A DNA stretch of 29,148 bases from Leucothrix mucor (GCA_011322515.1 DRMS01000322.1:1-29148); one strand, 5' to 3'. Positions 4,355 through 28,077 are shown, counted from the stretch's first letter. Notes: generated by a model not told the origin, from the sequence alone. A program made the numbers and translations.

Positions 4355-5278
4355 ATGAAGTTACCGACGATTAAACAGTTGCAATATTTTATTTCACTAG
4401 AAAAGCATCAACATTTTGGCAATGCTGCTAAGGCATGCTTTGTATCACAATCTGCTTTTAGTGTAGCGATTAAGGAGTTTGAAAATCATCTTGGAACACA
4501 ACTAGTTGATAGAACGAATAAACGTGTCACAATTACGGCAACTGGACGGGATATTGCCACACAGGCAAGATTATGTTTGCAGGATGTTGAATACTTAACT
4601 GAATTAGCGCGGAGTAATCAACAACCACTGACGGGAAAATTGAGCCTTGGAATTATTCCAACGATAGCGCCCTTTCTTTTACCTAAGTTGATGGCGGCTC
4701 TTTCTCTGAACTATCCTAATTTAAAATTATATCTCCGTGAAGATACAACGCAATCTGTACACAAATATTTACTCTCAGGTGAACTAGATATTATTTTAAT
4801 AGCGCTACCTTATACATTAAGCAGTATAGAAATAATGCCGTTATTTGAAGATAAGTTTTTACTTGCTTGTAATAAGAACAGCAAAATCCTTCAACCTGAT
4901 CATTATGATATTGATAAACTGCCGTCTGAAAGTATTTTGCTTTTAGAAGATGGGCATTGCCTGAGGGATCATGCTTTATCAGCCTGCCATATAAAAAATC
5001 AGGAGAGCGTTAGTCACTTTTCGGCAAGTAGCCTATTAACACTTGTTGGTATGGTGGATGCAGATATTGGTATTACCTATCTGACAGAAATATCACAGGG
5101 ATCAACCCTATTACAAAATACTGATGTGCAAACCTATCCCCTTGCTGATGCTAGTTGTAGAAAAATAGGCTTAGCATGGAGAAAAGGTAGTTCACGTTTT
5201 GAAGAATTTAAGTTGCTTGGCAAATTAGTTAAGAATTTAGGCTACCAACTTAAGGCGGGACAGTCTGTTAATTCGTAG
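4355..5278 (+). CDS. oxyR: Hydrogen peroxide sensor, LysR family; last 12 aa encoded by a MITE
   Basis: LysR HTH, EDGHCLRDHALSAC with both redox cysteines, divergent from a peroxidase gene. Confidence 0.95.
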   Translation: MKLPTIKQLQYFISLEKHQHFGNAAKACFVSQSAFSVAIKEFENHLGTQLVDRTNKRVTITATGRDIATQARLCLQDVEYLTELARSNQQPLTGKLSLGIIPTIAPFLLPKLMAALSLNYPNLKLYLREDTTQSVHKYLLSGELDIILIALPYTLSSIEIMPLFEDKFLLACNKNSKILQPDHYDIDKLPSESILLLEDGHCLRDHALSACHIKNQESVSHFSASSLLTLVGMVDADIGITYLTEISQGSTLLQNTDVQTYPLADASCRKIGLAWRKGSSRFEEFKLLGKLVKNLGYQLKAGQSVNS

Positions 5279-5403
5279 AATTAAAAAGAAAAAAATCATC
5301 TCGCAAAGACGCGGGGAGGGTACGGCAAGAAAAGAAACTTCCTCTGCGTTACTTCGCGTCTTTGCGAGAGATATGTTTTTTGCCCTGCCTTAACTTGCTA
5401 GCT
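5240..5403. mobile_element. MITE family A, 164 bp, alternative internal hairpin
   Basis: TIRs ggctaccaacttaaggcgggaca / tgccctgccttaacttgctagct; perfect 8-bp TSD agaattta (5232-5239, 5404-5411); internal stem tctcgcaaagacgcg (5299-5313) / cgcgtctttgcgaga (5355-5369). Confidence 0.9.
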
Positions 5404-5419
5404 AGAATTTATAAATTCT

Positions 5420-13174: not shown

Positions 13175-13310
13175 TAATTAATAGTATAATATAATCAAAT
13201 ACTTATAGATCACATGTAACATCTTAATTTAAGTTGTAGAATAATAACTCAAGAGGTGTTATTATTTTAATATATATAAAAAATAATTATTAAGCCTATA
13301 AGGATATTTC

Positions 13311-13363
13311 AAGAACGTGCATAAAATAAGTTAGAGTGTCCAGCTTATTCCGCGCACGTTCCT
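13311..13363. repeat. 53-bp mini foldback with family B ends
   Basis: aagaacgtgcataaaataag / cttattccgcgcacgttcct; ends match the 161-bp elements at 22248 and 22863. Confidence 0.65.
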
Positions 13364-13412
13364 CGGCCACAGGGAATAGGAATGTAACAACCTACTTAAG
13401 AGGACCGCTATT

Positions 13413-14015
13413 ATGAATATGTCACCCGATGCCACTGTTTTAAAGAGCCCCTGCCAAACACACTCATTACTTTTAAAAAATAATCATTCAAAACTGGAAA
13501 AGCTAGCTTTAACAGCTCCTTGGCAGAAGTTGAAAGATTTGCTACACGGGTCATCGAAGACGATTGGCAAGCCATTTAACAGCCCTATTTTAATGATGAA
13601 GCTTTTGGTTCTTCAGGAGTTGCTACAGATTAACACGAGGCAACTTCAAGATCATTTAGATGATCATTACAGTTTATTTGTCTTTTTAATACCTGGCATG
13701 GAAAATGGCATTCCAGAACAATCTGAAATAGAAAGATTAAAGCAATGCTTACAAGAAATGAACTTACTCTATCCTTTTCTCAATGAGTGTGTTGAAGTTC
13801 TAGGGATAGATCGCTCAAAAATAAATTTATATGAATATTATGATCATAATGCACCCCCAAAATACGCCTCTCCTCCCAGCGCTTTGCATGCAATAGCGTG
13901 CCCTCGTTGCGGTAGAAAAAACTTACATATCAGAACGCAGTCATTGATGACTAAAATTTTTAGCAAGAAATCATCTTATACCTGTAATGTTTGTACTTTA
14001 CATTTTGCGCTTTAG
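13413..14015 (+). CDS. IS5-transposase-like N-terminal domain (DUF772-like) fused to a zinc ribbon; no DDE domain
   Basis: LEKL...PW...GKP...LMMKLLVLQ...D..S...FL...IPE.S.I.R pattern; C-terminal CPRC...CNVC; RBS AAGAGGA; intact 200-aa frame. Confidence 0.7.
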   Translation: MNMSPDATVLKSPCQTHSLLLKNNHSKLEKLALTAPWQKLKDLLHGSSKTIGKPFNSPILMMKLLVLQELLQINTRQLQDHLDDHYSLFVFLIPGMENGIPEQSEIERLKQCLQEMNLLYPFLNECVEVLGIDRSKINLYEYYDHNAPPKYASPPSALHAIACPRCGRKNLHIRTQSLMTKIFSKKSSYTCNVCTLHFAL

Positions 14016-14141: not shown

Positions 14142-14175
14142 AAAAGGCTTGCTCTCCATATAGAGCAAGCCTTTT
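14142..14175. terminator. Bidirectional intrinsic terminator between convergent genes
   Basis: aaaaggcttgctct-ccatat-agagcaagcctttt, perfect 14-bp stem with A and T tracts. Confidence 0.85.
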
Positions 14176-14183
14176 GATTGTAG

Positions 14184-14328
14184 GGCTACTAACTTAAGGC
14201 GGGACAAGTAAAGTCATAGCAAACAACCCGCACCCTTCGACAAGCTCAGGGAGCTAGCTTCCTGAGCTTGTCGAAGGGTGCGGGTGAATAGGCATAAACA
14301 TTAACTGCCCCGCCTTAAACTGGTAGCC
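14184..14328. mobile_element. MITE family A, 145 bp, complete
   Basis: TIRs ggctactaacttaaggcgggaca / tgccccgccttaaactggtagcc; perfect 8-bp TSD gattgtag (14176-14183, 14329-14336); central acccgcacccttcgacaagctcagg hairpin. Confidence 0.95.
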
Positions 14329-22247: not shown

Positions 22248-22408
22248 GGAACGTGCGCGAAACAACTTCCCGATCTCTAACTTGCTTTTTTATCCCAGCT
22301 TGGATGATCTTATTCGTTGCATAGAGTGACTATGCGCCTCATGAGCTCATCTAATCTGAAATAAAAATTCTGCGTTAGAACTTCGGGAGGTTATTCCAGG
22401 CACGTTCC
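22248..22408. mobile_element. 161-bp foldback MITE-like element, family B copy 1
   Basis: Ends ggaacgtgc / gcacgttcc, imperfect palindrome along its length, flanked by TAA on both sides (22245-22247, 22409-22411). Confidence 0.75.
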
Positions 22409-22478
22409 TAACTATGAAGAATGCCAAAGTATGCTATTATTTTGTGGCTTTTTTAATTTCACTTACCAAGGGAAGATT

Positions 22479-22844: not shown

Positions 22845-22862
22845 AAATGGGCTATCAACTTA

Positions 22863-23023
22863 GGAACGAGCACGCAACAACCTCCTCATCTCTAGCTTGC
22901 TTTTTTATCCCAGCTTGGATGATCTCATTCGTTGCGTAGAGTGACTATGCGCCTTATCAGTTCATCCCATCTGAAATAAAAATTCTGCGTTAGAACTTCG
23001 GGAAGTTATTCCGTGCTCGTTCC
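22863..23023. mobile_element. 161-bp foldback element, family B copy 2
   Basis: Same length and orientation as copy 1; about 18 differences by hand count (~89% identity); ends ggaacgagcac / gtgctcgttcc. Confidence 0.75.
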
Positions 23024-23180: not shown

Positions 23181-23316
23181 GATTACCAATTTAAGGCGGG
23201 ACAGTTAATGTTTCTGCCTATTTACCCGCACCCTTCGACAAGCTAGTTCCCTGAGCTTGTCGAAGGGTGCGGGTTGTTTGCTATGACTTTACTTGTCCCA
23301 CCTTAAGTTGGTAGCC
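23181..23316. mobile_element. MITE family A, 136 bp, inverted relative to the 14184 copy
   Basis: TIRs gattaccaatttaaggcgggaca / tgtcccaccttaagttggtagcc; TSD gaaagtgt / aaaagtgt (7 of 8); small deletion in the central hairpin. Confidence 0.9.
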
Positions 23317-27505: not shown

Positions 27506-27641
27506 GGCTACCAGTTTAAGGCGGGACAGTTCATGTTTCTTCTATTCACTCGTCCCCTTCGACAAGCTCAGGACGCTAGTTCCCTGAGCTTGTCGAAGGG
27601 GGCGGGTTATTTACCATGACGTTACTTGTCCCGCCTTAAGT
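27506..27641. mobile_element. MITE family A lacking the outer ~8 bp of the right TIR
   Basis: ggctaccagtttaaggcgggacag...cccttcgacaagctcagg...ccctgagcttgtcgaaggg...tgtcccgccttaagt; no adjacent TSD. Confidence 0.85.
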
Positions 27642-28077
27642 CATAATGAGCCTCACAGACTTGTGGGTAACGATATGATCATCTATCCCTGTAAAAAACA
27701 GTCAAAAAATGGTGCAAAGATGAACTTGGAGAAACACTACAGAGCAAAAAAATAAAGGCATTTAGTGAGATTGATAAAGAAACAAAAATAGGATTATCTT
27801 TTTTTGGGGGGGGGAATCATCCTAATCAAAGGGTAGCGTCCCCTTTTTTTCTTTTTTTCCAAGGTATTGATTTACCGACCATAAAAAATGTGGTTATGGT
27901 TTGTAATAAGTTTAATCAATACTTATAAAAATAATTTGCATGACGTCCATCCATACGTTAGATTTACTTAACCGTTAATCTTTGAAAAGTTAGGTAATTA
28001 TTGAATATTTAACTAAACTATTAGATAGACACGGTATTTGTTGGATAAAGGTTTCTTCAACCCGCTATGGATTCGTC

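What the first reader, a model, noticed from the sequence alone, without database searches (positions are those of the whole stretch)
13413..14015. Apparently domesticated transposase: IS5-type N-terminal domain plus zinc ribbon, no DDE
Seen: residues ~25-130 follow the IS5 transposase N-terminal pattern I recall (LE.L...W...GRP....LM.K.LVLQ.L.......D..S...FL...VPD..TI..F). Where the first catalytic Asp segment should begin, there is instead a Pro-rich linker and a CPRC-x25-CNVC zinc ribbon. The frame is intact despite strong divergence, with a good RBS, a 238-bp AT-rich upstream region and a downstream terminator. No full IS ends enclose it. Inference: a host-recruited DNA-binding protein, possibly a regulator or a repressor of IS5-like and MITE ends. 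This is the best candidate here for an undescribed gene family.
Basis: partly seen in the sequence, partly recalled or inferred. Interest (0 to 1): 0.78.

Follow-up and report, generated by a model that had tools for sequence, protein, structure and literature searches.

The report
Tamed IS5 transposase head with zinc ribbon
This 200-residue gene is a real, conserved host gene that keeps only the DNA-recognition head of an IS5-type jumping-gene enzyme, joined to a zinc ribbon. It belongs to a small undescribed protein family confined to the sulfur-bacterium family Thiotrichaceae, and its function is unknown but is probably DNA binding.

Summary
ORF 13413-14015 (+) encodes 200 residues.

- **Homology:** residues 27-137 are homologous to the whole N-terminal region of IS5-family transposases. 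Pfam DUF772 scores 22-24 bits, which is borderline. Profile-profile comparison gives 98.4% probability, E 1e-14, and the match ends just before the first catalytic Asp.
- **Rest of the protein:** a Pro-rich linker and a CxxC-x24-CxxC zinc ribbon follow. There is no DDE domain and there are no IS ends.
- **Host gene, not an IS:** it is single-copy and lies between hemF and mltD in its genus. dN/dS is 0.09-0.17.
- **Family:** two old paralogous clades, both present in this genome. The family was found only in Thiotrichaceae (43 of 107 genomes) and in none of about 398 other gammaproteobacterial genomes. About 10 clusters exist among 1.84 billion protein representatives. No curated family model, name or solved relative exists.
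- **Function:** I read it as a domesticated transposase DNA-binding module, most likely a DNA-binding regulator. That function is inferred, not shown.
- **MITE idea:** The genome holds about 170 IS5-type MITEs, but MITE counts do not track the gene across relatives. The foldback in its promoter is a strain-specific insertion.

The scan has not met this family before. It has reported analogous IS1- and IS1595-derived cases on other DNA.

The parts
13413..14015 (+). Gene X: 200-aa protein plus stop codon; a clade-1 member of the DUF772-plus-zinc-ribbon family
   Evidence: The ORF is open. Orthologues of 51-92% identity exist. dN/dS is 0.09-0.17. It is single-copy.
13491..13823 (+). Residues 27-137: helical domain homologous to the N-terminal (DUF772) region of IS5-family transposases
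   Evidence: hhalign gives 98.4% probability, E 9.7e-15. Pfam DUF772 scores 22.1-24.1 bits. Foldseek matches InsH and 'InsH N-terminal domain' models at probability 0.94-1.00. The AF2 model has six helices with pLDDT 77-92.
13824..13889 (+). Residues 138-159: variable, Pro-rich, low-confidence linker
   Evidence: pLDDT is below 50 for residues 146-156. Length and sequence vary across the family.
13890..14012 (+). Residues 160-200: four-Cys zinc ribbon, CPRC-x24-CNVC, basic (pI about 10)
   Evidence: The four Cys are invariant in 26 sequences. Three short strands are modelled with pLDDT 81-85. Foldseek and VIA-align match the NrdR, TFIIS and RPA12 ribbons.
13398..13404 (+). Shine-Dalgarno-like AAGAGGA, 8 nt before the ATG
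   Evidence: Read directly from the sequence.
13175..13412 (.). 238-bp AT-rich upstream spacer, presumably holding the gene's own promoter
   Evidence: GC is 29%, or 17% without the insertion. Orthologues also have spacers of 145 bp or more. Promoter-like hexamers were scored only as consensus matches.
13310..13365 (.). 56-bp mini foldback with MITE-B (IS5-type) ends. It is a strain-specific insertion in the spacer, not a conserved operator
   Evidence: It is absent from the orthologous spacers L003 and L004. Contigs of relatives join 13309 to 13366 with only TA between them.
14142..14175 (.). Bidirectional intrinsic terminator: 14-bp perfect stem, 6-nt loop, with A and T runs on either side

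Best explanation
Gene X is a domesticated fragment of an IS5-family transposase. An ancestor of part of the Thiotrichaceae kept only the transposase's N-terminal end-recognition domain (DUF772 type) and joined it to a C-terminal four-Cys zinc ribbon. The DDE catalytic domain and the element's ends were lost.

The gene then duplicated into two clades that have since been inherited vertically as ordinary chromosomal genes under purifying selection. The protein cannot cut or move DNA.

It most likely works as a sequence-specific DNA-binding protein, that is a transcription regulator or a chromosome-associated factor. The helical domain would read DNA and the basic zinc ribbon would add nucleic-acid or partner contacts. 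It appears to be expressed from its own AT-rich promoter region at a low level.

Shown here: the homology, the architecture, the loss of the catalytic domain and ends, single copy, synteny, selection and distribution. Inferred: the direction of descent (transposase to host gene), DNA binding, and the regulatory role. The target sites are unknown.
For: Homology of residues 27-137 to the IS5 transposase N-region:
- hhalign gives 98.4% probability and E 9.7e-15, stopping before the first catalytic Asp.
- The family profile hits real DUF772+DDE_Tnp_1 transposases at about 1e-7 in 1.84 billion proteins.
- Pfam DUF772 scores 22-24 bits.
- 96 of the 100 nearest language-model clusters are DUF772.
- Structure matches to InsH N-domains have probability 0.94-1.00.

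No catalytic domain or IS ends.

Zinc ribbon: the four Cys are invariant and it is of the NrdR/TFIIS type.

Host-gene behaviour:
- One copy, at the same read depth as its flanks: 15.6 against 15.4.
- The hemF-X-mltD arrangement is kept at 69-77% identity.
- Neighbours are housekeeping genes everywhere.
- GC3 matches that of the neighbours.
- dN/dS is 0.09-0.17 at dS 0.25-1.07.

Distribution:
- Restricted range: 43 of 107 genomes of the family, 0 of about 398 other Gammaproteobacteria, and 9 clusters at E<1e-30.
- DUF772 transposases are widespread and are present in the same bacterial family, which favours descent from a transposase.
- The tree separates the IS5 transposases (100/98 support) from two family clades, and clade 2 follows the genera.

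Expression: RNA-library contigs of a relative about 90% identical cover the whole ORF at low depth.
Against: DNA binding was not tested, and no conserved target motif or conserved operon partner was found.

Clade-2 members of one genus are acidic overall (pI 4.5-5.5), which is unusual for DNA-binding proteins.

Pfam's own threshold is only just reached. No IS5 N-domain structure has been solved, so the fold evidence compares predictions with predictions; the best PDB Z-score is 4.7.

The RNA evidence is weak. Depth is 16-45 over the gene, against 15-34 in the upstream spacer and 165-1400 in the neighbouring genes, and DNA carry-over cannot be excluded.

The direction of descent rests on parsimony.
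Confidence: 0.6

Rival explanations
1. Guardian of IS5-type ends. The protein still recognises IS5-type terminal repeats. It would either repress transposition of IS5 elements and their MITEs, or use the roughly 340 MITE-B ends in this genome as dispersed binding sites.
For: MITE-B has ends like those of E. coli IS5 and a TTA/TAA target duplication in 111 of 133 complete copies. It gives 355 end matches in this genome. The assembly holds no IS5-type transposase. Large IS5 expansions (44, 29 and 10 copies) were seen only in genera without the gene.
Against: MITE-B counts do not follow the gene. One genus has the gene in 21 of 25 genomes but MITE-B in 4 of 23; another has MITE-B in 9 of 10 but the gene in 1 of 10. 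Genomes with the gene also carry true IS5-type transposases: 9 of 23 and 4 of 8. The expansion trend is confounded by assembly quality. The MITE-type foldback in the promoter is a recent insertion. The N-domain has diverged strongly from transposases (about 26% identity).
Confidence: 0.12
2. A protein-binding or RNA-polymerase-binding factor rather than a DNA reader. The helical domain would have been re-used as an interaction module, with the TFIIS-like zinc ribbon contacting a partner or RNA.
For: The best whole-model Foldseek matches are TFIIS-type factors, which also have a helical domain, a linker and a Cx2Cx24Cx2C ribbon, but the scores are poor: probability 0.5 or less, TM 0.18. Some clade-2 proteins are acidic. 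One source names a member an RNA-binding Zn-ribbon protein.
Against: The TFIIS acidic hairpin is not conserved. The TFIIS-type matches have low TM and high rmsd. The only significant sequence homology is to a transposase end-binding region.
Confidence: 0.18
3. A decaying insertion-sequence remnant or mis-called ORF with no function.
For: The genome is crowded with MITEs, and two of them lie within 200 bp of the gene. The Pfam score is borderline.
Against: The frame is intact in all the orthologues recovered, down to 51% identity. dN/dS is 0.09-0.17. The four Cys are invariant. Synteny is kept and there are no IS ends.
Confidence: 0.03
4. The shared domain is an old host DNA-binding fold that IS5 transposases also carry, so the gene was never part of a transposon.
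For: The direction of descent was not tested formally, and the outgroup sample in the tree is small.
Against: The host family is confined to one bacterial family, whereas DUF772 transposases occur across bacteria and archaea. The homology spans the complete pre-catalytic region of the transposase and ends exactly at the domain border.
Confidence: 0.07

Closest known systems
IS5-family transposase (e.g. E. coli InsH of IS5; Pfam DUF772 + DDE_Tnp_1)
   Same: The whole N-terminal, pre-catalytic region is homologous (residues 27-137 to about 25-136). The predicted helical fold is the same.
   Different: It has no DDE domain, no terminal inverted repeats and no target duplication. It is single-copy, syntenic and under purifying selection. 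A C-terminal zinc ribbon stands where the catalytic domain would be.
Short DNA-binding proteins encoded inside insertion sequences (IS1 InsA, IS3-family OrfA, the Tn5 inhibitor) - from general knowledge
   Same: Each is a transposase DNA-binding part without catalysis, and each acts, or could act, as a repressor at element ends.
   Different: Those are encoded within a mobile element and move with it. Gene X lies outside any element and is a stable chromosomal gene.
Domesticated transposase derivatives: TnpB-derived TldR repressors in bacteria (PMC10705468, PMC13622181), and PIF/Harbinger-derived host proteins in eukaryotes such as ALP1 (PMC4890758). Harbinger is the eukaryotic relative of IS5 (general knowledge).
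   Same: In all of them the host kept a nucleic-acid-recognising part of a transposon protein after catalysis was lost.
   Different: The donor family (IS5, a DDE enzyme), the architecture (DUF772 plus zinc ribbon) and the narrow taxonomic range all differ. No RNA guide is involved. The function here is untested.
NrdR / TFIIS / RPA12-type zinc ribbons
   Same: The last 40 residues have a Cx2C...Cx2C ribbon of similar predicted fold: rmsd 2.2-3.0 over 40-45 residues and Z 3.2. Weak sequence matches appear.
   Different: There is no ATP-cone (NrdR) and no acidic hairpin (TFIIS). Only the small ribbon is shared.
IS1-like and IS1595-like domesticated modules reported earlier by this scan (e1-101866, e1-4764332)
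   Same: The same theme: bacterial host proteins built from a transposase DNA-binding module.
   Different: The donor IS families and domain types differ. Those cases have conserved neighbours that suggest targets; this one does not. No sequence look-alike of gene X exists in the scan's index.

Membership tests
IS5-family transposase / insertion sequence | N-terminal DUF772-type domain | tested here: met
   Pfam gives 22.1 bits in hmmscan and 24.1 bits in the genome search, against a 23.1-bit cut-off. hhalign gives 98.4% probability, E 9.7e-15.
IS5-family transposase / insertion sequence | DDE catalytic domain (DDE_Tnp_1 or a relative) | tested here: not met
   No DDE family matches the protein. 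The protein ends at residue 200 with a zinc ribbon. PF01609 and PF13359 find nothing on this contig.
IS5-family transposase / insertion sequence | Terminal inverted repeats and a target-site duplication around the gene | tested here: not met
   No flanking inverted repeat encloses 13413-14015. The nearby repeats are separate small MITEs, each with its own duplication.
IS5-family transposase / insertion sequence | Multiple or mobile copies | tested here: not met
   There is one copy plus one 23%-identical paralogue in the genome. Read depth equals that of the flanks. The position is fixed within the genus.
Domesticated (exapted) transposase-derived host gene | Homology to a transposase part, with loss of catalysis and of element ends | tested here: met
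Domesticated (exapted) transposase-derived host gene | Orthologues at a conserved chromosomal site, under purifying selection | tested here: met
   hemF-X-mltD synteny is kept. dN/dS is 0.09-0.17. Clade 2 follows the genera in the tree.
Domesticated (exapted) transposase-derived host gene | Demonstrated host function or expression | tested here: inconclusive
   The only evidence is low-depth contigs of a relative in one metatranscriptome, and DNA carry-over is not excluded. No functional data exist.
Zinc ribbon (TFIIS/NrdR type) | Two CxxC knuckles on a three-stranded sheet | tested here: met
   The four Cys are invariant. The spacing is x24 in clade 1 and x20-24 in clade 2. Strands are modelled at 171-174, 188-191 and 197-199. 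Fold matches appear. Metal binding itself cannot be tested here.
GATA-type zinc finger (automatic name of the best AlphaFold DB cluster match) | Cx2C-x17/18-Cx2C spacing (general knowledge) | tested here: not met
   The spacing is x24 here and x20-24 across the family. The name is an automatic annotation.
IS-encoded truncated regulator (InsA/OrfA type) | Encoded inside an insertion sequence, upstream of or overlapping the transposase frame | tested here: not met
   There is no IS around the gene and no downstream transposase frame.

The most novel reading that the evidence does not exclude
The protein may still recognise IS5-type ends. In this genome, which holds about 170 IS5-type MITE copies and no IS5 transposase, it would use those ends as a dispersed set of binding sites. 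That would be a bacterial counterpart of the eukaryotic pairing of a transposon-derived transcription factor with its MITE network. Alternatively it would act as a trans-repressor that limits re-invasion by IS5 elements. The comparative data do not support this, but they cannot exclude it, because end sequences diverge quickly between genera and fragmented assemblies hide IS copies.
Probability: 0.1. Interest if true: 0.8.

Novelty: new variant of a known kind. Interest (0 to 1): 0.5.

Why it matters
Few cases are documented in bacteria of a transposon protein part becoming a stable host gene, and I found none for the DNA-binding head of a DDE transposase of the IS5 family.

This family offers a clean natural example with clear borders. 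The homology stops exactly where the catalytic domain would start, and a zinc ribbon has been added in its place.

There are two old paralogues, and some Thiotrichaceae genera include cultured species (general knowledge), so the function could be tested by experiment. Such work could also give the first experimental handle on how the uncharacterised DUF772 domain reads DNA.

The practical reach is limited, because the family is confined to one lineage of marine and sulfur bacteria and its function is unknown.

Tried and rejected
- **Conserved operator.** I tested whether the foldback with IS5-type ends just upstream of the ATG is a conserved operator. It is not. It is missing from orthologous spacers and from relatives' contigs.
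- **Co-occurrence with MITE-B and MITE-A.** I compared the gene family with both MITEs across 101 genomes and found no pattern (against 10, 56).
- **Co-occurrence with true IS5-type transposases.** They coexist with the gene. A weak inverse trend in copy number is confounded by assembly quality.
- **An IS5 parent of MITE-B.** None was found in the genome. The two DDE_Tnp_1 hits are an IS4-like element and an IS4-like remnant. An IS5 in a relative (G018) has different ends.
- **Protein-DNA complex prediction.** The job pairing the protein with a MITE-B end was not folded by the tool and gives no evidence either way.
- **Solved structures.** Foldseek and VIA-align found nothing convincing for the helical domain. 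The best Z is 4.7, and the DnaA domain IV and Tn4430 N-domain matches are only at noise level.
- **Conserved neighbours.** Neighbours differ between genera: hemF/mltD, T2SS/MscS, CinA/DsrC/UvrD, and SDR. No operon partner emerged.
- **Empty site.** In genus members that lack clade 1, the hemF neighbourhood is arranged differently, so nothing could be concluded.
- **PADLOC defence models.** The scan gave nothing for gene X.

Full report
**1. What is in the sequence**

Positions 13413-14015 on the + strand hold an open frame of 200 codons plus a stop.
- An AAGAGGA motif lies at 13398-13404, 8 nt before the ATG.
- The gene follows hemF (coproporphyrinogen oxidase, Pfam E 9e-129) after a 238-bp spacer. 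It faces an SLT/LysM murein transglycosylase on the other strand.
- The spacer is 29% GC, and 17% GC if a 56-bp insertion is left out. The gene itself is 37% GC, with a GC3 like its neighbours.
- A perfect 14-bp stem with A and T runs on either side lies at 14142-14175 and looks like a bidirectional terminator.
- No inverted repeats enclose the gene.

**2. Is the IS5 resemblance real?**

Taken alone, the Pfam match is borderline.
- DUF772 scores E 1.6e-4 and 22.1 bits against a cut-off of 23.1, over residues 52-115. The six-frame genome search gives 24.1 bits.
- NCBIfam gives weak N-terminal matches to the IS1182 and IS5 transposase models.

Profiles settle the question.
- I aligned 26 family members (A1) and searched 1.84 billion protein representatives. 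After the family itself, the next matches over profile positions of about 25-135 are proteins of 300-375 residues. Of eight of them that I scanned, six carry strong DUF772 and DDE_Tnp_1 domains, so these are true IS5-type transposases, found at E about 1e-7 for the whole library; the other two carry DUF772 alone.
- A profile-profile comparison of A1 with 19 such transposases gives 98.4% probability and E 9.7e-15 over 110 columns. It aligns residues 27-137 of the window protein with residues 25-136 of a transposase.
- The transposase consensus continues with GxIVDA, the first catalytic Asp, just after the aligned part. The window protein continues with a Pro-rich linker instead.

Independent support:
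- 96 of the 100 nearest language-model clusters are DUF772 families.
- An AlphaFold2 model (pLDDT 76; six helices between residues 22 and 130) matches predicted structures of E. coli InsH and of 'InsH N-terminal domain' proteins with Foldseek probability 0.94-1.00.
- No solved structure resembles the helical domain convincingly; the best Z is 4.7.

**3. The C-terminal part**

- Residues 160-200 form a four-Cys ribbon, CPRC-x24-CNVC.
- The four Cys are invariant across the family, together with W37, E69, P101 and C126.
- The modelled ribbon resembles those of NrdR, TFIIS and RPA12.
- In the window's clade it is strongly basic, with pI about 10.
- No DDE family matches the protein, and none is encoded on this contig.

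**4. Host gene or mobile element?**

- The genome (2.9 Mb, 491 contigs, 99% complete) has one copy, plus one distant paralogue of the same architecture on another contig: 215 aa, 23% identity.
- In a DNA run, the gene's depth equals that of its flanks, 15.6 against 15.4.
- Orthologues of 51-92% identity exist in metagenomes and MAGs. One is labelled Cocleimonas sp..
- At 69-77% identity the gene still lies between hemF and the transglycosylase. At about 54-56% identity it lies between type II secretion genes and an MscS channel gene.
- In all contexts examined the neighbours are housekeeping genes, not mobile-element genes.
- Pairwise dN/dS for pairs that are not saturated (dS 0.25-1.07) is 0.09-0.17.

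The gene is therefore kept by selection and inherited with the chromosome.

**5. The family and its range**

- With the profile, full-length members were found in 43 of 107 genomes of the window's order, which consists of a single family. By genus the counts are 9 of 10, 21 of 25, 7 of 8 and 2 of 3, against 1 of 10, 1 of 19 and 0 of 28. One further match, in a genus scored 1 of 3, covers the ribbon only.
- In a sample of 400 genomes spread across the class, no genome outside the family had a full-length match. Eight had matches to the N-domain only, seven of them in ORFs of about 330-360 residues, which are transposases, and one in a 139-residue ORF. One of those eight is the unpublished genome G139, and nothing else in this report rests on it.
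- Only 9 clusters reach E<1e-30 in the 1.84-billion library. A few more divergent metagenomic members exist. One is P0056, with DUF772 at 31.5 bits and a C-terminal CxxC...CxxC.
- A maximum-likelihood tree separates eight IS5 transposase N-domains (support 100/98) from two family clades. Clade 1 holds the window gene. Clade 2 holds the paralogue and groups by genus, as expected for vertical descent.
- No curated Pfam, NCBIfam or PADLOC model covers the family. Sources call its members 'hypothetical protein'. The best AlphaFold DB cluster match carries an automatic 'GATA-type' name that the Cys spacing does not fit.
- Literature searches found nothing on DUF772-derived host genes.

**6. Testing the idea of a link to IS5 or MITE ends**

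The genome is unusually rich in two small foldback elements.
- **MITE-A.** Its ends read GGCTACYAACTTAAGGCGGGACA and it makes an 8-bp duplication. One copy lies at 14184-14328, flanked by GATTGTAG. MITE-A gives 338 end matches in this genome and at most 9 in each of 100 relatives. Its read depth is about 400 times that of the flanks. A 1.75-kb element with the same ends in a relative encodes a 545-aa DUF6399 protein, so MITE-A is not an IS5 derivative.
- **MITE-B.** It is 161 bp long, with 133 complete copies and 355 end matches. It has ends like those of E. coli IS5 and a TTA/TAA duplication in 111 of 133 copies. It is therefore an IS5-type MITE.
- **No IS5 transposase.** The assembly has none. 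The only DDE_Tnp_1 hits are an IS4-like element and an IS4-like remnant.

- **First**, a foldback with MITE-B ends lies at 13310-13365, 47 bp before the ATG. It is absent from the orthologous spacers. Contigs of relatives join 13309 directly to 13366 with only TA between them. It is a recent insertion, not an operator.
- **Second**, MITE-B counts across 101 genomes do not follow the gene. One genus has the gene in 21 of 25 genomes but MITE-B in 4 of 23. Another has MITE-B in 9 of 10 and the gene in 1 of 10.
- **Third**, true DUF772 transposases coexist with the gene in two genera (9 of 23 and 4 of 8). Large expansions (44, 29 and 10 copies) occur only in genera without the gene, but those are the well-assembled genomes, so this trend cannot be trusted.

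The idea is not supported and is not fully excluded.

**7. Expression**

- One cold-seep metatranscriptome holds contigs of a relative about 90% identical that cover the whole ORF. Word depth is 16-45 over the gene, 15-34 over the upstream spacer, and 165-1400 over hemF and the transglycosylase.
- This is compatible with low-level transcription but does not prove it. DNA carry-over and read-through from hemF are both possible.

**8. Interpretation**

The best reading is a domesticated transposase module. The end-recognition head of an IS5-type transposase was fused to a zinc ribbon, retained by a lineage of Thiotrichaceae, duplicated, and kept under selection.
- Because this domain comes from the part of a transposase that recognises the element's ends (general knowledge of DDE transposases, not shown for DUF772 itself), and because the ribbon is basic, DNA binding and a regulatory role are the most likely function. 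I put this at about 0.6 overall.
- The main uncertainty is the function. No target motif or conserved partner was found, and one genus has acidic clade-2 proteins.
- The rivals are a role at IS5 or MITE ends (0.12), a protein- or RNA-polymerase-binding role (0.18), an ancestral host fold rather than a transposon origin (0.07), and a dead remnant (0.03).

**9. Novelty and score**

- Domestication of transposon proteins is a known kind of event. This donor family, this architecture and this gene family appear to be undescribed, so I rate it a new variant of a known kind.
- The scan's index has no look-alike of this protein. It has reported analogous IS1- and IS1595-derived modules on other DNA.
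- I give interest 0.5. The finding is solid and tidy, but it is confined to one bacterial family and has no known function.

Noticed in passing
window 14184-14328 (also about 5240-5404, 23181-23316, 27506-27649): MITE-A is a 145-165-bp foldback with ends GGCTACYAACTTAAGGCGGGACA and an 8-bp target duplication (GATTGTAG here, AGAATTTA at the 5240 copy). It gives 338 end matches in this genome against 9 or fewer in each of 100 relatives, and its read depth is about 400 times the flanks. This is a strain-specific burst that probably explains the fragmented assembly: 105 of 982 contig ends carry a MITE-A end.
   Followed up: partly
L065 (G070:C452:1-2400), element about 240-1990: This 1.75-kb element is a candidate autonomous partner of MITE-A. 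It has the same ends and encodes one 545-aa protein whose only Pfam match is DUF6399. That family may therefore be a transposase of an undescribed or poorly described IS type.
   Followed up: partly
window 22248-22409 and 22857-23016; 133 complete copies genome-wide: MITE-B is 161 bp long. Its ends, GGAACGTGCACGAAACAACTTCCCGATCT, resemble those of E. coli IS5, and 111 of 133 copies have a TTA/TAA duplication. It is an IS5-type MITE in a genome whose assembly holds no IS5-type transposase.
   Followed up: yes
window 13310-13365: A 56-bp mini foldback made of two MITE-B ends is inserted in the promoter spacer of gene X. Relatives have the empty site with only TA. It might alter the gene's expression in this strain.
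   Followed up: yes
G000 contig C454 (L002:1264-1908, minus strand): A second, 215-aa paralogue (clade 2) of the same architecture lies in the same genome, between a DUF1841 gene, a small lipoprotein-like gene and a 360-aa protein with no Pfam match. Clade 2 is nearly universal in two other genera.
   Followed up: partly
G099:C27 and G039:C99: The clade-2 genes in these two genomes are split into two frames, by a frameshift or by stops. They are either pseudogenes or assembly errors.
   Followed up: no
L038 (G000:C312) and L039 (G000:C287): An IS4-like element (383-426-aa DDE_Tnp_1 transposase) lies next to a PIN-domain gene fragment. An IS4-like remnant with the RWQIEIFFK motif is interrupted by stops. 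These are the only DDE_Tnp_1 hits in the genome.
   Followed up: partly
metagenomic proteins P0065 (374 aa), P0096 (312 aa), P0047 (241 aa), P0055 (221 aa): These are other proteins with a strong DUF772 domain and no detectable DDE domain. They may be further independent domestications, or fragments.
   Followed up: no
L034, L040 (clade 1, about 54-56% identity) and L011, L015, L017, L029 (clade 2): In some lineages the family gene lies directly after gspK-L-M-N. In another genus it lies one gene (an SDR) away from a GspD-like gene. A link to type II secretion is possible but was not tested.
   Followed up: no
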